A stretch of DNA of 64,000 nt, from the NCBI GenBank assembly GCA_937879875.1, contig CALFMN010000244.1, positions 46,433 to 110,432 on the forward strand, given 5' to 3'. This stretch comes from an uncultured Chloroflexota bacterium. Lineage in GTDB: Bacteria; Chloroflexota; Dehalococcoidia; CAUJGQ01. Below are positions 8,229 to 62,483 of this stretch, piece after piece; the first letter of the stretch is position 1, and every line of letters begins with the position of its first letter. The notes beneath the pieces are model-generated. The model was not told where the DNA came from and ran no database searches. It worked only from the letters and a program-made list of their open reading frames with translations. Made by a program: the position numbers and the translations under genes.

Positions 8229-8840
8229 ATGACGTACGTTCCCAATCCTGCCGTGATCGAGTCCGACGGGCGCATCGAGCGCTCGATGGATGTTTTCTCC
8301 CGGCTGCTGCGCGACCGCATTATCTACCTCGGCACGCCGATCGACGATTCGGTGGCGAATCTGATCATCGGCCAGTTGCTGTATCTGGCCAGCGCCGACC
8401 CCGACCGCGACATCCAGATGTACATCAACAGCCCCGGCGGCGTGGTCACCGCCGGCCTGGCCATCTACGACACGATGCAGCACATCCGCTGCGATGTGTC
8501 CACAACCTGCATCGGCCAGGCCGCCAGTATGGGCGCCGTGCTGCTGGCCGCCGGCGCCAAGGGCAAGCGCTACATCACGCCCAACGCGCAGGTAATGGTG
8601 CACCAGGGCAGCGCCGGTTTCAGCGGCGCCACGCCGGACATCATGATCCAGGTCCAGCACCTGGCCGGCCTGATCGAGCGGCTGAACAACATTCTCGCCA
8701 AACACACCGGCCAGCCGATGGAGCGCATCAAGACGGACACCTCCCGCGACTTCTGGATGAACGCCGACCAGGTGCTCGAGTACGGTATCTGCGATCAGGT
8801 GCTCTCGCCCGCAAAGGAGCTGGCCGCGGTCGGAGCATAG
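8229..8840 (+). CDS. clpP: ATP-dependent Clp protease proteolytic subunit
   Basis: The canonical ClpP sequence is present with catalytic Ser in GQAASMGA, His in MVHQ and Asp in RDFWM. A GAGGAG Shine-Dalgarno lies upstream. Confidence 0.95.
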   Translation: MTYVPNPAVIESDGRIERSMDVFSRLLRDRIIYLGTPIDDSVANLIIGQLLYLASADPDRDIQMYINSPGGVVTAGLAIYDTMQHIRCDVSTTCIGQAASMGAVLLAAGAKGKRYITPNAQVMVHQGSAGFSGATPDIMIQVQHLAGLIERLNNILAKHTGQPMERIKTDTSRDFWMNADQVLEYGICDQVLSPAKELAAVGA

Positions 8841-8866
8841 TCGCAGCTCAGCGCTTCCTGTACAGA

Positions 8867-8899
8867 CGACGGGGGACGGGCGCGATGCCCGTCCCCCGT
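8867..8899. terminator. Perfect 13-bp GC-rich hairpin downstream of clpP (putative terminator)
   Basis: ACGGGGGACGGGC-gcgat-GCCCGTCCCCCGT lies 27 nt after the clpP stop. It has no clear U-tract. Confidence 0.4.
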
Positions 8900-8920
8900 C
8901 TGCATGGTCGGCGGCGCTCG

Positions 8921-9106
8921 GCCCTCTATCCCCCGTCCCCTTTCCCCCAATCGTTGCCATCGCGCGGAGCGCGATCTGGGATGAGGGAAGGGGCGATCGT
9001 GCGCAGCACGACTCGGACGGTCTCGGGTTAACCATTCATCGATCGGATCGCTTCAGGCTGGATCGCCCCTCGCCCAGGATTGGGAGAGGGGAAGGGGGTG
9101 AGGGCC
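8921..9106. repeat. Family-B MITE-like palindromic repeat, copy 1
   Basis: The left arm is GGCCCTCTATCCCCCGTCCCCTTTCCCCCAATC... and the right arm is GATCGCCCCTCGCCCAGGATTGGGAGAGGGGAAGGGGGTGAGGGCC. A central GGGTTAACC is present. The element is homologous to the copies at 41855-42040 and 44888-45060. Confidence 0.6.
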
Positions 9107-11449
9107 CGCCGCCCGCATCGCGTTCCAGACCCGCTGCGGTGTCAGCGGCAGATCGATGTGGCGCACACCCAGCGGCGCCAGCGCATCCATCACCGCGTTG
9201 GCGATCGCCGGCACGCTGCCGATCGTGCCCGCTTCGCCCACGCCCTTGACGCCGAGCGGCGTGCGCGGCGAGGGCGTGACCGTATGGCCGATCGACATGT
9301 GCGGCATATCTTCGCTGTGCGGAATCGCGTAGTCCATGAAGCTGCCGGAAATGAGCTGGCCGTTTTCGTCGTAGACCACCTCTTCCAGCAGCGCCTGGCC
9401 CACCCCCTGCGCGATGCCGCCGTGCACCTGCCCGCGCACGATCAGCGGGTTGATCACCGGACCGCAGTCGTCTACCCCGTCGAAACGCAGCAGCGACACC
9501 GCGCCGGTGTCGCGATCCACTTCGACCATCGCTAAGTACGCGCCGAAGGGGAAGGTCATGCCCTGCGAGCCGAAGAAGTGCTGCGCTTCGAGGCCGGGCT
9601 CGTCGCCGGGCGCGGGCGCGCTGTAGGCGTGCGCGGCCACGCGCTGAAAGGCGAGGCCGCGGTCGGGCGCGTCGGCCGGCTCGATGCGGCCGTTGCGGAA
9701 GACAAGATCGTCTTCGTTCGCCTCGATCATGTTGGCGGCGACGCGGCGCATTTTCGCCTCGATCTCGCGCAGCGACTGATAGACCGCCGAACCGCCCATC
9801 ATCATGCTGCGGCTGCCAAAAGTCCCGATGCCCTGCGGCACGATGGCGGTATCGTGCTCGTGCAGCGTCACCGTGTCGGGATCGACGCCCAGCACTTCGG
9901 CCGCGAGCTGCGCGAAGACCGTCTCGTGGCCCTGGCCGTGCGCCGAAACGCCGGTTAACAACTCGACCGCGCCGCTCTGGTTCACACGCACCGCGCCGTA
10001 CTCCCAGGCCGCCGCGCCGCCGCCTTCGCTGGCCGCGCCGGGGCCGCAGCTCTCGACGTACGAGCAGATGCCGATGCCGACCAGCCGCCCGGCGGCGCGG
10101 GCCGCATCGCGCTCGCGCTTGAGCGCGGCGTAATCCACGTTCTCCAGCAGGGTGCTCAGCGCCTTCTCGTAGTCGCCGCTGTCGTAGAGCAGGCCGGTGG
10201 CCGTGCGATACGGGAAGGCGTCGGCGGGAATGAAGTTCTTACGGCGCAGCTCGACCGGGTCCATCGCCAGCTCGCGCGCCAGCAGATCCATCGCCCGCTC
10301 GCAGAAGTAGGTCGCTTCTGGCCGGCCGGCGCCGCGGTAGGCTGCCGTGGGCGACTTGTTGGTCAGCGCCTCGCTGAGCAGCACGCGGGCAGCGGGAAAT
10401 TTGTAGACGTTGGTGCAGAGCCGCTGCGTGTTGCCGAACAGGCCGACCGTGCTGGCGTCGCAGGTATGGCCCAAATCGGCGATGATGCTGAGCTTGAGGC
10501 CGAGCAGCGTGCCGTCGCGCCTGGCCGCCAGCTCGATCGTGCCGCTCTGGCCACGGCCGTGGCTGGTGGTCGTGAACGACTCCATGCGCGTCTCGATCCA
10601 CTTGACCGGCCGCTCGAAGCGCCGCGCCAGGAACGCGGCGCAGGCTTCTTCGGAGTAGACATTGCCTTTGGCGCCGAAGCCGCCGCCCATCTCCGGCGCG
10701 ATCACACGCACGCGTCCTTCGGGAACGCCGGTCATGCGCGAGAGCGTGGCGCGCACGCGGTGCGGCGCCTGCGAAGTGACCCAGATCGTGAAACGATCGT
10801 CCCAGCGATCGTAGCGCGCCAGCACGCCGCGCGTTTCGATCGCGGAGGGCGCGAGGCGGGCGGCCGACATGCGCTGCTTCACGACGATATCCGCCTGCGC
10901 GAACGCCGCCTCGATCTCAGCTTCTGAGGCGCCGAACGGCACGCCCCGCAGCACGGCGTTGCCGGGAAAGTCGTCCCAGAGCTGCGGCGCGCCCGGCGCC
11001 AGCGCCGCCTCCGGATCGACCACGGCGGGCAACTCGTCATACTCGACCTCGACCAGGTCGACCGCGTCCTCCGCGACGTAACGGTCACTCGCCAGCACCG
11101 CGGCGACCGACTCGCCCACGCGCCGCACCTTCTCCCGCGCCAGCACGAAGCGGGGCGGCTGCGGCGGACCGGGATTCGCCGGGAACGGCGGCGCGAAGTC
11201 GGCGGCTTCGGCGCCCGTCACCACGGCGAAGACACCCGGCAAGGCGAGCGCCGCGCTCACGTCGATCGAAACGATGCGGGCGTGCGCGTGCGGGGAGCGT
11301 ACGAAAGCGAGGTGCAGCAGATCGGGCAGATGCATGTCGTCGATGTAGGTTGCACTGCCGGTAATCAGGCGCGGGTCTTCGCGCCGTTTCACCGGCGTTC
11401 CGAACCAACGCGCATGCAGAAATGGCCCGGTGCTGTGCTCGTCAGCCAC
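9053..11449 (-). CDS. Xanthine dehydrogenase/aldehyde oxidase/CoxL-family molybdopterin-binding large subunit
   Basis: An approximately 800-aa Mo-hydroxylase large-subunit-like sequence (FGTPVKRREDPRLITGSATYIDD..., GGGFG, MMGGS motifs). Start was set at GTG (VADEHS) with an AGGAAG Shine-Dalgarno. The last ~17 codons lie inside repeat copy B1. Confidence 0.8.
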   Translation of the reverse strand: MADEHSTGPFLHARWFGTPVKRREDPRLITGSATYIDDMHLPDLLHLAFVRSPHAHARIVSIDVSAALALPGVFAVVTGAEAADFAPPFPANPGPPQPPRFVLAREKVRRVGESVAAVLASDRYVAEDAVDLVEVEYDELPAVVDPEAALAPGAPQLWDDFPGNAVLRGVPFGASEAEIEAAFAQADIVVKQRMSAARLAPSAIETRGVLARYDRWDDRFTIWVTSQAPHRVRATLSRMTGVPEGRVRVIAPEMGGGFGAKGNVYSEEACAAFLARRFERPVKWIETRMESFTTTSHGRGQSGTIELAARRDGTLLGLKLSIIADLGHTCDASTVGLFGNTQRLCTNVYKFPAARVLLSEALTNKSPTAAYRGAGRPEATYFCERAMDLLARELAMDPVELRRKNFIPADAFPYRTATGLLYDSGDYEKALSTLLENVDYAALKRERDAARAAGRLVGIGICSYVESCGPGAASEGGGAAAWEYGAVRVNQSGAVELLTGVSAHGQGHETVFAQLAAEVLGVDPDTVTLHEHDTAIVPQGIGTFGSRSMMMGGSAVYQSLREIEAKMRRVAANMIEANEDDLVFRNGRIEPADAPDRGLAFQRVAAHAYSAPAPGDEPGLEAQHFFGSQGMTFPFGAYLAMVEVDRDTGAVSLLRFDGVDDCGPVINPLIVRGQVHGGIAQGVGQALLEEVVYDENGQLISGSFMDYAIPHSEDMPHMSIGHTVTPSPRTPLGVKGVGEAGTIGSVPAIANAVMDALAPLGVRHIDLPLTPQRVWNAMRAAGPHPLPLSQSWARGDPA

Positions 11450-11824
11450 GGTTGGCTTCCTCCCGCGGGTGGGTGTGGGGCGCTGCCCCGTGCAACTGTA
11501 CACTGACCAGCAACGATGCGCCGACTGAACACCTAACCCCATCGCGGCTTGCGCCGCGCCTGCCGATCACCGTCTTTCCAGGCCACAAGCCCGAACTCGC
11601 CGCGGACGTCTTACCTGGCTCTGGCATCACGGCGTCCTGCCGCGGCGTAGTGGACTGCGCTGCGCGGCTGCGCCGATCGGGCGGCTATCCATAGCGCCAG
11701 CCGCGCGCCGGCGGCGCTCGCGCATTGTGCGGGCCGCGACGCGTCTGCTAGCATATTGCCGTAGAAAAAGAGCGTGAAAAACGAGCCCGACCGCGAGAGC
11801 GGGCACCAGAGAGAAGAAAGGCGC

Positions 11825-12344: not shown

Positions 12345-14630
12345 ATGCCAGACTACGTCGAAACCCAGATCAACGGCCGCCCGCTCCTGATCGAGACGGG
12401 CACGCTCGCCCAACAGGCCGGCGGCTCCGTCAGCGTGCGCTACGGCGACACCGTGGTGCTCGTCACCGCTACCGCCAGCCCGCAGCCGCGCCCGCTCGAC
12501 TTCTTCCCCCTGACCGTGGACTACGAAGAGCGGCTCTATGCCGCCGGCAAGATTCCCGGCAGTTTCTTCCGCCGCGAAGGCCGCCCCGGCACCGAGGCGA
12601 TCCTCGCCGCCCGCCTGACGGACCGGCCGATTCGCCCGCTCTTTCCCAACGGCTTCCGCAACGACGTGCAGGTAATCATCACCGTGCTCTCGGCCGATCA
12701 GGAGAACGACCCGGACGTGCTCGGCACGATCGGCGCCTCCGCCGCGCTGATGATCTCCAACATCCCCTTCGACGGCCCGATCAGCAGCGTGCGCGTCGGC
12801 CGCGTGGACGGCAGGTTCGTCGCCCTGCCCACGTACAGCGAGCTGCAAAAGAGCGATCTCGACCTCGTGGTGGCGGGCACGCGCGACGCGATCATGATGG
12901 TCGAGTGCGGCTCACAAGAAGTCTCAGAGGACGACATGGTGGCGGCGATCCGCTTCGGCGACGAGGTCAACAAGCAGATCATCGCCGTGCAGGAAGAGCT
13001 GATCGCCCGCAACGGCAAGCCGAAGATGGAGGTCGCGGTCAAGCAGGTTGACCCAGAGGTCGCCGGCGCCGTACGCGCCTACCTCGCGGACAAGATCGGC
13101 CCGGCGCTGGGCGGCGCGTCCAAAGAGGCGCAGCGCGAGGCCGAGGACCGCGCCCGCGACGATGTGCTGGAGCATTTCGCCGAGCAGTACGACAAGGACG
13201 CCGTGCTCTCCGTCTTCGAGTCGATGCTCAAAGACGGTGTGCGCAACGCGATCATCGACGAGGCGCGCCGCCCCGATGGCCGCGCCCTCACCGAGATTCG
13301 CCCGCTGAGCTGCGCCGTGGGCATCCTGCCGCGTACGCACGGCACCGGCCTCTTCCAGCGCGGCGAGACGCAGATCCTGACGATCGCCACGCTCGGTGGC
13401 GTGGGCGAGGTGCAGAAGATCGACAGCCTCTCGCAGGAAGAGACCAAGCGCTACATGCACCACTACAACTTTCCGCCGTTCTCCGTGGGTGAGGTGCGGC
13501 GCGTGGGCTCGCCCGGCCGGCGCGAGATCGGCCACGGCGCCCTGGCCGAGCGGGCGCTGCTGCCGGTGATTCCGCCGGTGGAAGAGTTCCCCTACACGTT
13601 GCGGCTCGTCTCCGAGACGCTCGGCTCGAACGGCAGCAGCTCGATGGGCAGCGTCTGCGGCAGCACGCTGGCGCTGATGGACGCGGGCGTGCCGCTGCGC
13701 AAGCCGGTGGCCGGCGTGGCGATGGGCCTGGTGATGCGCGATGACGGCAAGTACACCGTGCTCACCGATATCGCCGGCATCGAAGACCATCTGGGCGACA
13801 TGGACTTCAAAGTCGCCGGCACCAAAGACGGCATCACCGCGCTGCAAATGGACATCAAGGTCAAGGGCATTACGCCGGAGATCATGGAGAAAGCGCTGGC
13901 GCAGGCCAAAGACGGCCGCATGTTCATCATGAACGCGATGTTAGAAACGATTCCCGAGCCGCGCGCCGAGATGTCGCCCTACGCGCCGCGCATGTACACG
14001 ATCCGCATCAACCCGGAGAAGATCGGCGCGGTGATCGGCCCCGGCGGCAAGACGATCCGCTCGATTATCGAAGCGACCAAGGCCACGATCGACATCGAGG
14101 ACGACGGCAAGGTCTTCATCGGCTCGGCCAACGAGGAGGGCGCCCGCAAGGCGATCCAGATGGTCGAGGGGCTGACCAAAGAGGTCGAGGTCGGCCAGGT
14201 CTACACGGGCAAGGTCACGCGCATCATGCCCTTCGGCGCCTTCGTGGAGATTCTGCCGAACAAGGACGGCCTGGTCCACATCTCCGAGTTGGCCGACCAC
14301 CGCGTGGAGCGCGTCGAAGACGAGGTCAACATCGGCGACGAAGTGACCGTCGTGGTCAGCGAGATCGACCACATGGGCCGCATCAACCTCTCGCGCCGTG
14401 CCTTATTGGACGGCAGCCGCAACGGCGCCGGCGAGGGCGAAGGCGAAGATATGGAGGGCCGGCGCGGCGGCTCGCTGATGGGCGGGCGCGGCAGGCCGGG
14501 CGGCGGCCGTCCCGGCGGCTTCGGCGGTCGCGGCCCCGGTGGACCCGGCGGCGGCCCGCCGCGGCGCGGCCCGGGTGGTCCCGGCGGCGGCTTCGGCGGC
14601 CCCGGCAATGGCGGCCCGCGCCGCCGCTAA
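12345..14630 (+). CDS. pnp: Polyribonucleotide nucleotidyltransferase (PNPase) with C-terminal Gly/Arg/Pro-rich tail
   Basis: Two RNase PH domains, a KH domain and an S1 domain are present. It is in conserved synteny after rpsO. The last ~75 aa are low-complexity ([25 protein letters not shown]...). Confidence 0.95.
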
Positions 14631-14658
14631 GCGGCGTTGCGCGTGCAGACTTGCTCCC

Positions 14659-14688
14659 GGCGGGCCGTCGCTCTGGTGACGGCCCGCC
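14659..14688 (+). terminator. Putative pnp terminator hairpin
   Basis: GGCGGGCCGTC-gctctggt-GACGGCCCGCC is an 11-bp stem lying 28 nt after the pnp stop. The downstream tract is only weakly T-rich. Confidence 0.4.
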
Positions 14689-14740
14689 GATCTGCTTGCC
14701 CTGCATTGCTACAATCAAGAGACAGCGCGGCGGTGAAACG

Positions 14741-15049
14741 ATGACCACGAGCACACCGATCGATATCGGTACGCTGATCTACTCGCGCCCCGATCTGCAT
14801 TCCGGCAAGCCCTGCCTCACCGGCACGGGCATGACGGTGCATGCCGTCGCCGGAATGTATCTGGCCGGAATGAGCGCCGAGCAAATCCAGTCCGAGTTTC
14901 CCGATCTGGACCTCACCCTCTTCTATGCGGCGATCACCTACTACCTCGCGAATCGGACCCGGATCGACACCGAGCTGGCAGAGGAACAGGCGCTCGCCGA
15001 GGAACTCGCGGCCCGCTACCCGCAAGGGTGGCGCCGCGAGAATATGTAG
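14741..15049 (+). CDS. DUF433-domain protein (putative antitoxin), copy 1
   Basis: MTTSTPIDIGTLIYSRPDLHSGKPCLTGTGMTVHAVAGMY... is a typical DUF433 sequence. It is immediately followed by a DUF5615 gene. Confidence 0.75.
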   Translation: MTTSTPIDIGTLIYSRPDLHSGKPCLTGTGMTVHAVAGMYLAGMSAEQIQSEFPDLDLTLFYAAITYYLANRTRIDTELAEEQALAEELAARYPQGWRRENM

Positions 15050-15055
15050 CGCCGG

Positions 15056-15412
15056 GTGTTTTCGCTGTATCTGGACGAAGACAGCATGGGCCGCGGTCTG
15101 CTTACTGGCCTGCGTCGGCGCGGCGTCGACGTGGTCACGGTGCAGGAGGAACGCAGACGCGGCCAGCCGGACATCGCCCAGCTTGAGTGGGCGACGCGGC
15201 ACGGTCGTGTGCTGTACACCAAGAACGCCGGGGACTTCCAGCGCCTCCACACCGAGATCCTTCTCAGCGAGCGACATCATGCGGGTATCATCGTCTTGAC
15301 CGGGCGCAGCATTTCCGTGGGCCATCAGCTACGTGGCTTGTTCACGATCTTGGACGGACGCACGGCTGAAGAGATGATCGATGCCCTCGAATACCTCAGT
15401 AATTGGCGGTGA
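15056..15412 (+). CDS. DUF5615-family PIN-like protein (putative toxin)
   Basis: VFSLYLDEDSMGRGLLTGLRRRGVDVVTVQE...GRVLYTKNAGDF matches the DUF5615 pattern. It has a GTG start 6 nt after the DUF433 stop. Confidence 0.7.
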   Translation: MFSLYLDEDSMGRGLLTGLRRRGVDVVTVQEERRRGQPDIAQLEWATRHGRVLYTKNAGDFQRLHTEILLSERHHAGIIVLTGRSISVGHQLRGLFTILDGRTAEEMIDALEYLSNWR

Positions 15413-15416
15413 AGCG

Positions 15417-15731
15417 ATGACCACGAGCACACCGGTCGATATCGGCACGCTGATCTACTCCCGCCCGGACCTGCACTCGGGCAAGCCCTGTCTTGCCGGC
15501 ACGGGCATGACCGTGCACGCCGTCGCCGCACGCTACAACCGCGGCATGAGCGCCGAGCAGATTCAGGACTCGATTCCCGACCTCGACCTGAGTTTGTTCT
15601 ACGCGGCGATCACCTACTACCTCGCCAACCGCGCCCGCATCGACGCCGACTTCGCAGCCGACGCGGCTCTGTACGACGAACTCGCGGCCCGTTACCCCAA
15701 CGGTTGGCGCCGCGAGAACATGCGCCCCTGA
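15417..15731 (+). CDS. DUF433-domain protein, copy 2 (recent paralog of 14741..15049)
   Basis: About 85% identical to copy 1 (MTTSTPVDIGTLIYSRPDLHSGKPCLAGTGMTVHAVAARY...). It starts 4 nt after the DUF5615 stop. Confidence 0.75.
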   Translation: MTTSTPVDIGTLIYSRPDLHSGKPCLAGTGMTVHAVAARYNRGMSAEQIQDSIPDLDLSLFYAAITYYLANRARIDADFAADAALYDELAARYPNGWRRENMRP

Positions 15732-37973: not shown

Positions 37974-38003
37974 GGCCACCGTCCGTCCACACGCGGCGCG
38001 CCT

Positions 38004-38095
38004 AACCCTGACTTCCCTGGCGGGAAGTCTGTCCCTGGGAAGGGACAGATATCGCTTCAGCGATGTCAGGGTTAGGTGCCCCGCGCTCGGCAATG
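38004..38095. repeat. Family-A MITE-like repeat, short (internally deleted) copy
   Basis: The termini GCGCCTAACCCTGAC ... GTCAGGGTTAGGTGCCCC are present. Internal hairpins (TCTGTCCCTGGGAAGGGACAGA; ATCGCTTCAGCGAT) correspond to the fused left and right ends of the long copies. Confidence 0.65.
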
Positions 38096-42051: not shown

Positions 42052-42381
42052 CTAGCCCATCGGCAGGCCGGCGTCGCGCCAGGTATCGGTGCCGCCCTCG
42101 ACGTTGAAGAGCCGGGTCTTGCCGCCGGCGGCGGCGTACTCGCAGGCGAGGGCGCTGCGTTGCCCCATCTTGCAGATGAACAGCACGTCTCTGTCGTCCG
42201 GCAGTTCGTCGCGGCGGTTGTAGACGCTGTTCAGCGGGATCAGCGTCGTGCCGGCAGCGTGATAGTCGGCGAACTCGCCCGGCTCGCGCACGTCGATGAA
42301 GGCGGCGTCGCCTTTGTCCAACATCTCCTTCGCCTCTTGCACCGAGACGCGGGTAAACGGTTCCTGCGGATTCTTGACCGC
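42052..42381 (-). CDS. Single-domain rhodanese (sulfurtransferase)
   Basis: The active-site loop FICKMGQRS is present within DVREPGEFADYHAAG...LFICKMGQRS. Start is probably GTG (VAVKNPQ). Confidence 0.7.
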   Translation of the reverse strand, partial: AVKNPQEPFTRVSVQEAKEMLDKGDAAFIDVREPGEFADYHAAGTTLIPLNSVYNRRDELPDDRDVLFICKMGQRSALACEYAAAGGKTRLFNVEGGTDTWRDAGLPMG

Positions 42382-44887: not shown

Positions 44888-45060
44888 CGTTCGGCCCTCA
44901 CCACCGTCCCCTCGCCCAATCCTGGGCGAGGGGCGATCCCGGGTTGGAGCGATCCGTAGCGGCGTCGGGTTAACCGTTTTGTCAGTCGGACCGCTCACTG
45001 GTGGATCGTCTCCTTCTCCCAGGATTGGGAGAAGGAGACAGGAGAGGTTGAGGGCCGAAA
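44888..45060. repeat. Family-B MITE-like palindromic repeat, copy 3 (full length, clean TIRs)
   Basis: The left terminal repeat is GGCCCTCACCACCGTCCCCTCGCCCAATCCTGGGCGAGGGGCGATC. The right terminal repeat is GATCGTCTCCTTCTCCCAGGATTGGGAGAAGGAGAC...TTGAGGGCC. A central GGGTTAACC is present. The element fills almost the whole gap between two convergent stop codons. Confidence 0.65.
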
Positions 45061-45068
45061 GCCGCGCC

Positions 45069-46628
45069 TCAGGCTGAGCCGTTGCGCATACGCCGGAACC
45101 AGCCGCGCGGGGGCTGCGAGCGTTGCCGCGGCGTCGCAAGCGACTCATGCTCACATGATTGCAGCTCGAGCTCGCGCAGATACGCGTCGATCGCGGCAGC
45201 GGCGCGGCGACCAGCGGCCATCGCCGTCACGACCAGGCCCTCGCCGTGCACCACGTCCCCGCCGGCAAAGACACCGCGCCGGCCCGTGTGGCCGTCTGAA
45301 CTCTCGGTTCTGAGAAAACCCTTGCCGTTGACGCCGAGGCCTTCCGTCGCCTCGCGCAGCAGCGGGTCGGGCTCGTAGCCGATCGCGATCACGGCAAGCC
45401 GCGCCGGGATCTCGTAGTCGGAGCCCAGCACGGCGAAGGCGCGCCGGCGACCGCCGGCGTCTGACTCGCCGCGCTCCAGGCGACGCAGGCGCACGCCGGT
45501 CAGGTGGCCTGCCGCGTCGCCGGTAAAGGCCACCGGCTCCGTCTCGAAGCGAAAGACCACACCTTCTGCGCGTGCGTCCGTTTCCTCTTCCGCGCGCGCG
45601 GCCAGCTCTTCGCGCGTGCCGCTGCAGGCCAGCGTGACAGATGACGCGCCCATGCGCAGCGCCGTGCGTACGCTGTCCAGTGCGGCGTCGGTGCCGCCGA
45701 TCACGACGACGGCCGGCGCCTCTTCACGCCGCGCCAGCGCCGTCGCGGCCGAGCCGGCGCCGCCCGCCGCCAGCAGCTTGCCCGCGGCGGCGTTCGCCCG
45801 CAACAGAAACTCCGTGGCCGTCGAGACGCCCTCATACTCCGAGGCGCCGGGGATGCGCAGCTCTCGGTCCACGCCGGCGCCGGTGGCCAGGTAGACGGCG
45901 TCGAAGCCTTCCACCAGCAGCTCATCCACGCTGACATCGCGCCCGACGCGCACGCCGCTGACGAAGTCGGCGCCGAGCATGGTGAGAAAGCGCAGCTTCT
46001 CGTTGAGAATGCGTTTCGCCAGCTTGAAATTGGGAATGCCGTGCGCCAGCGCGCCGCCGGGCGTCGGCCACTGGTCGAAGACGCTGACCTCGTGCCCGCG
46101 TTTGACCAGTTCCTCGGCGACTGTCAGGCCGGACGGCCCCGAGCCAACCACGGCCACCCGCCGGCCGCTCGGCTCCGGCAGATCGGCCGGCAGCGGGAAG
46201 CCACCGAGCTGTGTCCGCTGCGTGTCGGCGACAAACGCTTCGAGCACGCCGATGCCGACGGGTGGCTCTTTGCGCCCATCCGGCCGAATCGCGAAGCCCA
46301 CCGGGCACTCGCCCTCGCACAGCCGCTCGTGCGGGCAGAGCCGCCCGCACATCTCCGGCAGATTGGAGGTTTCGCGAAACTTGTTGGCAGCGCCGATCGC
46401 GTCGCCATTTTCGAGCAGCAGCAGCGCCGACGGGATGTCGTTGTGTGCGGGGCAGGCATCAACGCAGGGCGTGGTCGGGCAGTGGATACAGCGGGCTGCT
46501 TCCAGCCGCGCCCGGTTCAGGTCGAGCCCCTGGTAGACCTCTTCCCAGTTGTTGACGCGCTCTTCGGGAGATTGCTTGTCGCCCGGCTGCGCCGAGATGC
46601 TCAGCCGCGCCCAGATGCGATTTGCCAT
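45069..46628 (-). CDS. Glutamate synthase small-subunit-like NAD(P)H-dependent FAD oxidoreductase (GltD/PreT family)
   Basis: The N-terminal Fe-S Cys cluster region is present (CIHCPTTPCVDACP...CGRLCPHERLCEGEC). Two dinucleotide-binding motifs are present (VAVVGSGPSGL; VVVIGGTDAALD). Start was set at MANRIW. Confidence 0.8.
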   Translation of the reverse strand: MANRIWARLSISAQPGDKQSPEERVNNWEEVYQGLDLNRARLEAARCIHCPTTPCVDACPAHNDIPSALLLLENGDAIGAANKFRETSNLPEMCGRLCPHERLCEGECPVGFAIRPDGRKEPPVGIGVLEAFVADTQRTQLGGFPLPADLPEPSGRRVAVVGSGPSGLTVAEELVKRGHEVSVFDQWPTPGGALAHGIPNFKLAKRILNEKLRFLTMLGADFVSGVRVGRDVSVDELLVEGFDAVYLATGAGVDRELRIPGASEYEGVSTATEFLLRANAAAGKLLAAGGAGSAATALARREEAPAVVVIGGTDAALDSVRTALRMGASSVTLACSGTREELAARAEEETDARAEGVVFRFETEPVAFTGDAAGHLTGVRLRRLERGESDAGGRRRAFAVLGSDYEIPARLAVIAIGYEPDPLLREATEGLGVNGKGFLRTESSDGHTGRRGVFAGGDVVHGEGLVVTAMAAGRRAAAAIDAYLRELELQSCEHESLATPRQRSQPPRGWFRRMRNGSA

Positions 46629-49141: not shown

Positions 49142-49272
49142 GGCTTGCCTCCCGCCTTTTCCTGCGAGTTTTTACCACTGGTATAATACGGTCATACGCC
49201 CAGAAGCCGCCGCCTGTCAAGTATGCAGAAAAGAGCGCAGCGCCTTCTCAGATGCCGCCATGGCCGCCCCAC

Positions 49273-49502
49273 GCGGGGCACCTAACCCTGCTTTGCCTGG
49301 CGGCAAAGCTGTCCCTTCCCGAAGCGGGAAGGGACTTTTGGAGCGTTCCCAGCGCCATGAGACGGCGGCGGGGCTGGGGTGTCCTTGTGGGACAGGCGCC
49401 AGGCTCGTCTCCCAGCCGCCCCGTCGTTCCTCGACCCTCACCCTTCCTGTGTCGGGAAGGGACAGATTTCGCTGAAGCGAAATCAGGGTTAGGTGCCCCG
49501 CG
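49273..49502. repeat. Family-A MITE-like repeat, long copy
   Basis: The termini GCGGGGCACCTAACCCTG ... CAGGGTTAGGTGCCCCGCG are present. Internal conserved blocks include GGACTTTTGGAGCGTTCCCAGCGCC, GACGGCGGCGGGGCTGGGGTGTCC and CCCTTCCTGTGTCGGGAAGGGACAG. It lies in the divergent region between the diiron paralog 2 and tetR. Confidence 0.7.
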
Positions 49503-49600
49503 CCGCCAGGGCGCGCCGCATACCACACGGTCGGCGACACACGCGGCGAACGCGACGTTCGCGCGGCAGCACAGGGCGGTGCTAGCATGCAGGTCAGGCG

Positions 49601-53479: not shown

Positions 53480-53707
53480 CGCGGGCACCTAACCCTGACC
53501 TCGCAGGCGAGGTCTGTCCCTTCCCGAAACTGGAAGGGACTTCTGGAGCGTTCCCGGCGCCGTGCGACGGCGGCGGGGCTGCGGTGTCCCTGCGAGACAC
53601 GCGGATGGATTGCCTTCCACCCAGCCGATTGTCCTCGAACCAAACCCTTCCTGTGTCGGGAAGGGACAGCTTTGCCGCCAGGCAAAGCAGGGTTAGGTGC
53701 CCTGCGC
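53480..53707. repeat. Family-A MITE-like repeat, long copy
   Basis: The termini GCGGGCACCTAACCCTGA ... CAGGGTTAGGTGCCCTGCG are present. The internal blocks match those of the other long copies. Confidence 0.7.
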
Positions 53708-53755
53708 GGCCGGTGCCCTCCGCACAGCCTATGGAAGTCGCGGTCGAGTCCGCCT

Positions 53756-57883: not shown

Positions 57884-58113
57884 GGCGGGGCACCTAACCC
57901 TGACCTCGCAGGCGAGGTCTGTCCCTTCCCGAGGCGGGAAAGGGACTTCCAGAGCGTTCCCGGCGGCGCCGGACGGCGGCGGGGCTGGGGTGTCCTTGCG
58001 GGTCGTGCGGAGGGAACGGTTCCTGCCTTTCCGGTGATCCTCGAACCTTACCCTTCCAGTTTCGGGAAGGGACAGACTTCGCTTCAGCGAAGTCAGGGTT
58101 AGGTGCCCCGCGC
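57884..58113. repeat. Family-A MITE-like repeat, long copy
   Basis: The termini GGCGGGGCACCTAACCCTGA ... TCAGGGTTAGGTGCCCCGCGCGG are present. The internal blocks are the same as in the copies at 49273 and 53480. Confidence 0.7.
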
Positions 58114-58138
58114 GGCCGCCTCAGCCGCGAACCCCGCC

Positions 58139-62427: not shown

Positions 62428-62483
62428 CGCCCTACGCCCTACGCCCTACGCCCTACGCCCTACGCCCTACGCCCTACGCCCTA
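62428..62483. repeat. Heptanucleotide tandem repeat (CGCCCTA)x8, preceded by (CGTCGGAT)x2
   Basis: Read directly from the sequence: cgcccta x8, perfect. It lies about 20 nt upstream of the annotated DUF2723 start and downstream of the apt stop. Confidence 0.85.

What the first reader, a model, noticed from the sequence alone, without database searches (positions are those of the whole stretch)
9053..9106. Repeat copy B1 supplies the last ~17 codons and stop of the xanthine-dehydrogenase-family gene
The right arm of the family-B element (GATCGCCCCTCGCCCAGGATTGGGAGAGGGGAAGGGGGTGAGGGCC) lies inside the 3-prime end of the Mo-hydroxylase large-subunit ORF on the opposite strand. The C-terminal residues ...PHPLPLSQSWARGDPA* are therefore encoded by repeat DNA. 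This suggests an insertion that replaced the native C-terminus. It is an example of a MITE remodelling a protein end.
Basis: partly seen in the sequence, partly recalled or inferred. Interest (0 to 1): 0.5.

Follow-up and report, generated by a model that had tools for sequence, protein, structure and literature searches.

The report
Repeat element supplies an enzyme's tail
A small palindromic repeat sits on the 3' end of a molybdenum-hydroxylase gene, so the last 16-17 amino acids and the stop codon are read from repeat DNA; this is real but ordinary, giving a floppy, probably neutral tail of a kind already documented in other bacteria.

Summary
The ORF at 9053..11449(-) encodes a 798-aa xanthine-dehydrogenase-family, CoxL-like large subunit. 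Its codons at 9056-9106 and its stop at 9053-9055 lie inside one arm of a ~190-bp palindromic repeat (8918-9106). The repeat has two more copies in the window and at least 16 full-length copies in metagenome contigs.

Homologues end a median of 9-10 residues after the invariant Trp; this protein ends 23 residues after it. A 75%-identical relative has the same DNA through ...RAAG. At that point the window sequence switches into the element terminus GGCCCTCA.

The conserved fold and last helix are intact, and at most a few unconserved residues were displaced (net about +13 aa). The tail is predicted to be disordered. Relatives that share the same insertion read the element in a different frame with a different stop, so the tail sequence is not conserved.

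"MITE" is not established: there is no target-site duplication, no parent transposase was found, and the REP tags are absent. Coxiella QMITEs show the same phenomenon. Verdict: a new member of a known kind, of low interest.

The parts
9053..9055 (-). Stop codon (TGA) of the hydroxylase gene, located in the interior of the repeat element
9056..9106 (-). Last 17 codons (GPHPLPLSQSWARGDPA), read from the element's right arm and adjoining interior. The first codon, GGC, is shared with the native sequence by microhomology
   Evidence: residues 784-798 have pLDDT below 50 and no secondary structure
9107..11449 (-). Native part of the Mo-hydroxylase (CoxL-like, AYRGAGR-motif) large-subunit CDS. The recorded start is GTG at 11449; the longest ORF extends to 11542
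8918..9106 (.). Family-B palindromic element, copy 1. It has termini TCGGCCCTC...GAGGGCC, two internal hairpins and a central GGTTAACC. Its left hairpin loop carries a nested palindrome, ATCGCGCGGAGCGCGAT
9061..9106 (+).
8868..8900 (.). Perfect 14-bp stem with a 5-nt loop between the element and ClpP. It is homologous to the T-tailed ClpP terminator in L081 and to the terminator hairpin in the element-free locus L205. The consensus scan does not call it as a terminator because there is no T-run here
8229..8840 (+). ClpP gene, convergent with the hydroxylase gene. This synteny anchor is shared with L081 and L205
41853..42047 (+). Family-B element, copy 2, intergenic. The stop of the rhodanese-domain gene (42052-42054) lies 4 nt beyond its end
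44891..45058 (-). Family-B element, copy 3, intergenic. The stop of the 533-aa oxidoreductase gene (45069-45071) lies 10 nt beyond its end

Best explanation
A non-autonomous, structured palindromic repeat ('family B', about 165-227 bp) inserted at the extreme 3' end of a CoxL-like Mo-hydroxylase gene, between the coding end and the terminator hairpin shared with convergent ClpP. This happened in an ancestor of this genome and of at least two related Dehalococcoidia-labelled lineages.

The element has termini TCGGCCCTCA...TGAGGGCCGA, two internal hairpins and a GGTTAACC centre. The family normally sits 2-27 nt downstream of stop codons. Here the junction fell at or just before the native stop, directly after ...RAAG. 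Translation therefore runs into the element arm until it meets an in-element stop.

The result is a disordered, Pro-rich tail of 16-17 aa in place of a native tail of only a few residues. It is tolerated because the post-helix C-terminal tail of this enzyme family varies freely in length and sequence. It is best read as a neutral by-product of repeat insertion, not an adaptation.

Shown: the overlap, the breakpoint, family membership, shared position in relatives, element-free relatives with short tails, frame differences between lineages, and predicted disorder. Inferred: the direction and timing of the event, neutrality, and the mobilisation mechanism, which remains unknown.
For: The repeat is real. 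There are 3 copies in the window against 0 expected, and nhmmer finds 19 full-length copies and many partial ones in the window plus fetched contigs.

Breakpoint. The element-free relative L204 reads ...CGGGCGGCGGGC|GGCGAAGGACGCTGA, while the window reads ...CGGGCGGCGGGC|CCTCACCCC, which is the element terminus.

Tail lengths. The median is 9-10 aa after the invariant Trp in 124 homologues. The window protein has 23, and only element-bearing proteins show the PHP.../PSPSP signature. CoxL crystal chains end about 2 residues after the breakpoint.

Same element in relatives. It lies at the same site and in the same orientation in L081 and L209. It sits 22 versus 23 nt from the homologous terminator stem. 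The syntenic locus L205/L206 has no element and only a 97-bp spacer.

Frame difference. A 2-nt indel makes L081 and L209 read the arm in another frame (GGPHPPSPSPMPAA*) with a different stop.

Placement across the family. Flanking gene stops are mostly 2-27 nt outside the element ends. An independent Mur-ligase-family gene (L097) also ends 28 nt inside a copy.

Structure. AlphaFold gives mean pLDDT 86.4; the last helix is residues 771-781, and residues 784-798 have pLDDT below 50.

Precedent. Coxiella QMITE1 and QMITE2 overlap the 3' ends of functional genes by up to 50 bp, and an indel decides whether enhC gains 33 element-encoded residues (PMC5896051).
Against: No clean empty site exists. 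The element-free relatives have remodelled 3' ends: L205/L207 have an AT-rich spacer and L208 has a different downstream gene. The displaced native residues therefore cannot be read off directly, and no remnant of a native stop is visible on the far side of the element.

The protein NJ tree places L209, which bears the element, with the element-free genes. At the DNA level all lineages are equidistant at 86-89%. One insertion, insertion plus loss, and repeated insertion cannot be separated.

The window and L081 copies are no more similar to each other than to other family members.

Between L081 and L209, all 3 substitutions in the element-encoded codons are synonymous. This is a small hint of constraint. 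It is confounded by the general conservation of the arms across the family.

No expression or protein data are available.
Confidence: 0.85

Rival explanations
1. The element-encoded tail, or the element as a 3' RNA structure, has been co-opted. Possible roles are a C-terminal degradation or localisation signal, or an mRNA 3' stabiliser or terminator for the hydroxylase transcript. On this view it is retained by selection.
For: The copy has been kept at this site across lineages that differ by 11-14% in coding DNA. All 3 substitutions in the tail codons between L081 and L209 are synonymous. The element folds stably, with DNA-fold z = -5.3 for copy 2 and -2.4 for copy 1. Its hairpins keep pairing through CG<->UA double changes.
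Against: The window and L081/L209 read the arm in different frames, giving unrelated peptides and different stops. The tail is predicted to be disordered. Three close relatives do without it. Arm conservation and compensatory changes are properties of the whole dispersed family, so they do not indicate a gene-specific role. Three substitutions are too few to test selection.
Confidence: 0.08
2. The element entered this same 3' site independently in different lineages, at a site-specific hot spot, rather than once in a common ancestor.
For: The window and L081 copies are not each other's closest relatives within the family. They carry different nested loop insertions. On the protein tree the element-bearing genes are not monophyletic. 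The family shows a strong preference for positions just after stop codons.
Against: Both junctions coincide. The gene-side breakpoint is the same apart from a 9-nt indel, the orientation is the same, and the distance to the homologous terminator stem is 22 versus 23 nt. L081 and L209 share a unique loop insertion and an identical tail. The DNA-level phylogeny is star-like, so non-monophyly is not established.
Confidence: 0.12
3. The extended ORF is an artefact: an assembly or sequencing error in a repeat, or a mis-called stop.
For: Repeats are error-prone in assemblies, and no expression data exist.
Against: The identical 798-aa protein is recorded from independent sources, JGI and NCBI/ENA, on about 5 contigs. 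Two other lineages from other assemblies also read into the element. The coding-frame GC3 signature continues in the ORF.
Confidence: 0.02
4. The direction is reversed: the repeat family arose from, or captured, the 3' end of this gene, so the tail is native.
For: None beyond the sequence identity itself.
Against: The arm occurs next to many unrelated housekeeping genes, in both orientations. It is one half of a symmetric palindromic element. Homologues lack the tail.
Confidence: 0.01

Closest known systems
Coxiella burnetii QMITE1/QMITE2 overlaps with gene 3' ends (PMC5896051)
   Same: Small non-coding inverted-repeat elements overlap the 3' ends of functional genes by 1-50 bp and supply terminal residues and/or the stop codon. 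For enhC, an indel between strains decides whether 33 element-encoded residues are appended. This parallels the frame and stop differences between the window and L081/L209.
   Different: The phylum is different (Chloroflexota-like, 68% GC, versus an AT-rich gammaproteobacterium) and the sequences are unrelated. The QMITEs have recognisable direct repeats and a link to IS1111. Neither direct repeats nor an IS link was found here.
REPINs (REP doublets forming hairpins, mobilised by RAYT transposases; PMC3116915, PMC3733652)
   Same: Two short imperfect palindromes lie in inverted orientation and fold into a long hairpin. Placement is extragenic and close to gene ends. Compensatory changes keep the pairing. 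There is no target duplication.
   Different: The element is longer, at 165-227 bp with a spacer of about 60-85 nt. There is no consistent GTAG or CGTC tag: 2 and 9 of 38 arms respectively. No RAYT was found in the window or in about 2 Mb of fetched contigs, although that screen was weak.
Rickettsia palindromic elements (RPEs), as reviewed in PMC10969869
   Same: Palindromic repeats of about 150 bp that become translated as part of host proteins and are tolerated.
   Different: RPEs insert in-frame inside ORFs, and the host reading frame resumes after them. Here the element sits at the very end and provides the stop codon, and most copies of the family are extragenic.
Enterobacterial RU/ERIC small mobile sequences found intragenically (PMC2759123, listed; not read in full)
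   Same: According to the title and abstract, these are MITE-like intergenic repeats of 100-170 bp that sometimes lie within genes and contribute peptide sequence.
   Different: The sequence family and host are unrelated. The details were not compared.

Membership tests
MITE (miniature inverted-repeat transposable element) | Short (<500 bp) with no transposase gene | tested here: met
   Full-length copies are 162-227 bp. Neighbouring and enclosed ORFs are housekeeping genes, with no transposase family among the hits.
MITE (miniature inverted-repeat transposable element) | Terminal inverted repeats | tested here: met
   The termini TCGGCCCTCA...TGAGGGCCGA are conserved in 19 copies. The terminal stem pairs are 18-19/19.
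MITE (miniature inverted-repeat transposable element) | Flanking direct repeats (target-site duplication) | tested here: not met
   The longest abutting direct repeat averages 3.6 nt within a copy and 3.7 nt between copies. With symmetric offsets the values are 2.4 and 2.2. Caveat: direct repeats decay in old copies (PMC10969869).
MITE (miniature inverted-repeat transposable element) | Multiple dispersed copies in a genome | tested here: met
   There are 3 copies in 64 kb against 0 expected, and several copies on single metagenome contigs, for example L086, L148, L149 and L190.
MITE (miniature inverted-repeat transposable element) | A parent insertion sequence with matching inverted repeats | tested here: inconclusive
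   None was found in the window or in the fetched contigs. No complete genome of the host was available.
REP / REPIN | Two REP-like short palindromes in inverted orientation that fold into a hairpin | tested here: met
   There are two 11-bp-stem hairpins with 4-nt loops (ATCC/GGAT) in inverted orientation, plus a terminal stem. The DNA fold is -54.4 kcal/mol with z = -5.3. The element is larger than typical REPINs.
REP / REPIN | An unpaired GTAG or CGTC tag at one end of each REP | tested here: not met
   A CGTC-like string is present at 9 of 38 arms and GTAG/CTAC at 2 of 38. The definition comes from PMC3733652.
REP / REPIN | An associated RAYT (IS200/IS605-type tyrosine transposase) flanked by the repeats | tested here: inconclusive
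   A motif screen of about 2 Mb of six-frame translations gave 0 hits. That motif was recalled from memory, so the screen is weak. No Y1 transposase appeared among the families listed for ORFs near copies, but the pooled scan displayed only the top 25 of 84 families. A whole genome is needed.
REP / REPIN | Extragenic placement, and pairing maintained by compensatory change | tested here: met
   Gene stops lie mostly 2-27 nt outside the element. Three left-hairpin pairs show CG<->UA double changes in 6-7 copies each.
Xanthine dehydrogenase / CoxL family Mo-binding large subunit (the host gene) | Ald_Xan_dh_C + MoCoBD_1 + MoCoBD_2 architecture and full-length similarity to solved CoxL chains | tested here: met
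   Pfam E-values are 8e-32, 2.5e-75 and 1.8e-89. The match to 8uem_A CoxL has E = 5e-190 over residues 5-768.
Form I (bona fide) aerobic CO dehydrogenase CoxL | Active-site loop AYxCSFR, and adjacent coxM/coxS genes | tested here: not met
   The sequence has AYRGAGR. The motif assignment rests on my own knowledge of form I versus form II CoxL. No medium- or small-subunit genes lie next to the gene in the window, L081 or L205.

The most novel reading that the evidence does not exclude
Family B may be an undescribed Chloroflexota-type palindromic element that targets the first few tens of nucleotides after stop codons, or the spacer before terminator hairpins. Its copy at the hydroxylase gene may have been co-opted. 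Candidate roles are a 3' mRNA structure or a Pro-rich C-terminal appendage affecting enzyme turnover. The gene converges on clpP, and the L081/L209 tail ends in ...PAA. Retention over about 12% DNA divergence and synonymous-only change between two lineages would be the hints.
Probability: 0.08. Interest if true: 0.5.

Novelty: new member of a known kind. Interest (0 to 1): 0.22.

Why it matters
The practical value is for annotation. C-terminal extensions rich in P, L, S, G and R at the ends of proteins in high-GC Chloroflexota genomes can be read-through into intergenic repeats. They should not be treated as conserved protein features or used in alignments and trees.

The finding also documents a repeat family that is widespread in metagenome contigs, has no Rfam match, and sits strikingly close to stop codons. 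This family could be used to study how such elements choose their targets and how often they alter protein ends.

It does not open a long-standing question. The same phenomenon is documented for Coxiella QMITEs, and related effects on host proteins for Rickettsia RPEs and enterobacterial repeat units.

Tried and rejected
- **Rfam scan of the whole window.** No family reached its gathering score, so the element is not a curated RNA family.
- **Loci of 75-77% relatives (L203, L204; no DNA was returned for P0012's locus).** They are not syntenic downstream. Only L204's gene end was informative.
- **First PDB query.** It was out of frame and gave no hits. I repeated it in frame.
- **First TSD routine.** It was logically faulty, so I replaced it.
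- **Copy-specific flank complementarity** (insertion into pre-existing palindromes). Same-copy and cross-copy values match at 7.8 versus 7.7 of 16. Only L103 shows an 18-nt extension, so I rejected this as a general feature.
- **Automated hairpin and tag finder.** It was unreliable on the variable arms and I discarded it. A direct string count replaced it.
- **Recombination of the 3' end between lineages.** Sliding-window identity gave no signal.
- **Look-ups of the window's own protein to name the source record.** Both failed.
- **Consensus terminator and promoter scan of 8700-9300.** It found nothing. The 14-bp hairpin has no T-run here.
- **RAYT motif screen.** It gave zero hits, but the motif was recalled from memory, so this counts for little.

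Full report
**1. The observation**

The region reads as described. The ORF 9053..11542(-) is the only long ORF there with a coding GC3 signature. Its recorded form starts at GTG 11449 and is 798 aa. It is identical to database proteins P0123 and P0124, which were recorded from independent sources.

The protein has the three domains of a xanthine-dehydrogenase-family molybdopterin-binding subunit. It aligns end to end with solved CoxL chains; the best match is 8uem_A at E = 5e-190. It ends ...PLTPQRVWNAMRAAGPHPLPLSQSWARGDPA*. The stop is at 9053-9055 and codons G782-A798 occupy 9056-9106.

Shuffled sequence gave no matches.

**2. What the repeat is**

Aligning the three window copies shows a complete element of about 170-200 bp. 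An nhmmer profile built from them finds the three window copies and at least 16 further full-length copies, plus many partial ones. These came from contigs fetched by a metagenome scan for the hairpin core.

All copies share the inverted termini TCGGCCCTCA...TGAGGGCCGA. They have two internal hairpins (11-bp stem, 4-nt loop ATCC/GGAT) in inverted orientation and a central palindrome GGTTAACC. The whole element is therefore an imperfect palindrome. Copy 2 folds well below shuffled controls (z = -5.3); copy 1 less so (z = -2.4). Three pairs of the left hairpin switch CG<->UA in 6-7 copies each, so pairing is maintained. Hairpin loops often carry nested small palindromic insertions.

No Rfam family matches. 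There is no target-site duplication, because same-copy and cross-copy values match. The flanks are not complementary in a copy-specific way. ORFs next to or between copies are ordinary genes such as Hsp70, DnaJ, PrmA, a GT20 glycosyltransferase, amidohydrolases and ABC transporters. No transposase appeared among the families listed, though the pooled scan showed only the top 25 of 84. A motif screen for RAYT-type transposases found nothing in about 2 Mb, but that motif came from memory. The GTAG and CGTC tags that define the REP superfamilies are not consistently present.

The element is therefore a non-autonomous palindromic repeat. It meets some MITE criteria (size, inverted termini, copy number, no coding capacity) and some REPIN criteria (inverted hairpin doublet, compensatory change, extragenic placement, no duplication). 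It fails or cannot be tested on the decisive criteria of each.

**3. Where copies sit**

For copies with a credible flanking gene, the stop codon lies mostly 2-27 nt outside the element end (one at 57 nt). In the window this is 4 nt for the rhodanese-domain gene and 10 nt for the 533-aa oxidoreductase. A stop well inside the element is rare. It occurs at the hydroxylase gene (56 nt inside), in its positional orthologues, and independently in a Mur-ligase-family gene in L097 (28 nt inside). Overlap with a gene end is what one expects occasionally from a family that lands this close to stop codons.

**4. Is the native C-terminus replaced?**

Among 124 homologues, the tail after the invariant Trp (W775) has a median of 9-10 residues and a range of 4-24. 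The 46 relatives at 63-77% identity have 4-18 residues. The window protein has 23. Only the element-bearing proteins carry the PHP.../PSPSP signature. Solved CoxL chains end about 2 residues past ...AAGPH.

At the DNA level, the element-free relative L204 (75% identity) is identical through CGGGCGGCGGGC (RAAG) and continues GGCGAAGGACGCTGA (GEGR*). The window switches at that point into GGCCCTCA, the element terminus.

The 90% cluster of the closest relative contains three members without the element. They end ...AAAGDR*...AMTRNEEIE* and ...AMQRGNEELE*. One of them, L205/L206, keeps the convergent ClpP gene with only a 97-bp spacer, compared with 212 bp in the window.

'Replacement' overstates the change, though. 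Everything through the last helix (residues 771-781 in a model with mean pLDDT 86.4) is native. The element-encoded residues 784-798 are predicted to be disordered. Only a handful of unconserved residues can have been displaced. The net effect is an extension of about 13 aa.

**5. History**

L081 (92% identical protein, from a Dehalococcoidia-labelled MAG) and L209 carry the element at the same position and in the same orientation. Apart from a 9-nt indel, the gene-side breakpoint is the same. The distance to the homologous ClpP terminator stem is 23 nt, against 22 nt in the window. A 2-nt indel makes them read the arm in another frame (GGPHPPSPSPMPAA*), with a stop inside a lineage-specific loop insertion. 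The peptide is therefore not conserved between lineages that share the insertion, which argues for neutrality.

There are caveats:
- Between L081 and L209, all three substitutions in the tail codons are synonymous. The number is small, and the arms are conserved family-wide in any case.
- The protein NJ tree does not make the element-bearing genes monophyletic.
- DNA identities are star-like at 86-89%, with no recombination signal.
- The window and L081 copies are not each other's nearest family members.

One old insertion is the most parsimonious reading because both junctions coincide. Insertion followed by loss, or repeated insertion at a hot spot, is not excluded. The element-free loci have remodelled 3' ends, so no exact empty site is available.

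**6. Mechanism and comparison with known cases**

The best explanation is that a selfish or structural palindromic repeat landed at the gene's stop, so translation continues into the repeat until the first in-frame stop. The resulting floppy tail is tolerated because this family's C-terminal tail is unconstrained.

The closest documented case is Coxiella burnetii. There, QMITE1 and QMITE2 overlap the 3' ends of functional genes by up to 50 bp, and an indel between strains decides whether EnhC gains 33 element-encoded residues (PMC5896051). REPINs (PMC3116915) are the closest structural analogue of the element. Rickettsia RPEs (PMC10969869) are the classic case of translated palindromic repeats, but they insert internally and in frame.

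**7. Verdict**

The finding is real and correctly located, and its core interpretation is right: repeat DNA encodes the protein's end. It is a new instance of a known phenomenon, most likely neutral. The 'MITE' label and the 'replacement' wording are stronger than the evidence allows. Interest is low. The repeat family itself, with its stop-proximal placement, is the more interesting by-product.

Noticed in passing
window 37992-38086, 49269-49507, 53480-53712, 57885-58118: A second, unrelated palindromic repeat family with the core GGCACCTAACCCTGAC...GTCAGGGTTAGGTGCC. It is present as full elements of about 95-240 bp with long inverted arms.
   Followed up: no
window 62428-62483: A perfect tandem array of the heptamer CGCCCTA, about 8 units, between two genes (family D12).
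   Followed up: no
window 14651-15049 and 15381-15731: Two adjacent small paralogous ORFs lying on a tandem duplication with 676-bp spacing and 77-90% identity.
   Followed up: no
window 9053-11449; L081 10001-12394; L205 5001-7355: The CoxL-like large-subunit gene (AYRGAGR motif, form-II-like) stands alone. No FAD-binding medium-subunit or 2Fe-2S small-subunit genes are adjacent in any of the three loci.
   Followed up: partly
L097 651-2153 and element 2124-2321: An independent case: a Mur-ligase-family gene ends 28 nt inside another family-B copy (tail ...LLPAAPYPPAT*). A convergent gene stops 2 nt beyond the other end of that copy.
   Followed up: partly
window 8953-8976 (copy 1 left-hairpin loop); also L103, L182, L149: Family-B hairpin loops carry recurrent nested mini-palindromes. 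One is ATCGCGCGGAGCGCGAT. Another is GTCTCCGATGGTTGCGCTGCGC, seen in window copy 2, L115 and L149. This suggests secondary insertions into hairpin loops, or modular subfamilies.
   Followed up: no
L103 3413-3645: One copy is flanked by a perfect 18-nt inverted repeat extending beyond the conserved termini (GGGGCGCCCGCGGCCAGC...GCTGGCCGCGGGCGCCCC). No other copy shows this.
   Followed up: partly
L131 5262-5393; L111 7253-7595: Single family-B-type hairpins (arm only) occur in short tandem or clustered arrays. In L131 there are three at 45-bp spacing. This is reminiscent of REP singlet clusters.
   Followed up: no
window 14513-14627: The PNPase gene (12345-14630) ends in a long Gly/Pro/Arg-rich tail encoded by 36-nt repeats.
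   Followed up: no
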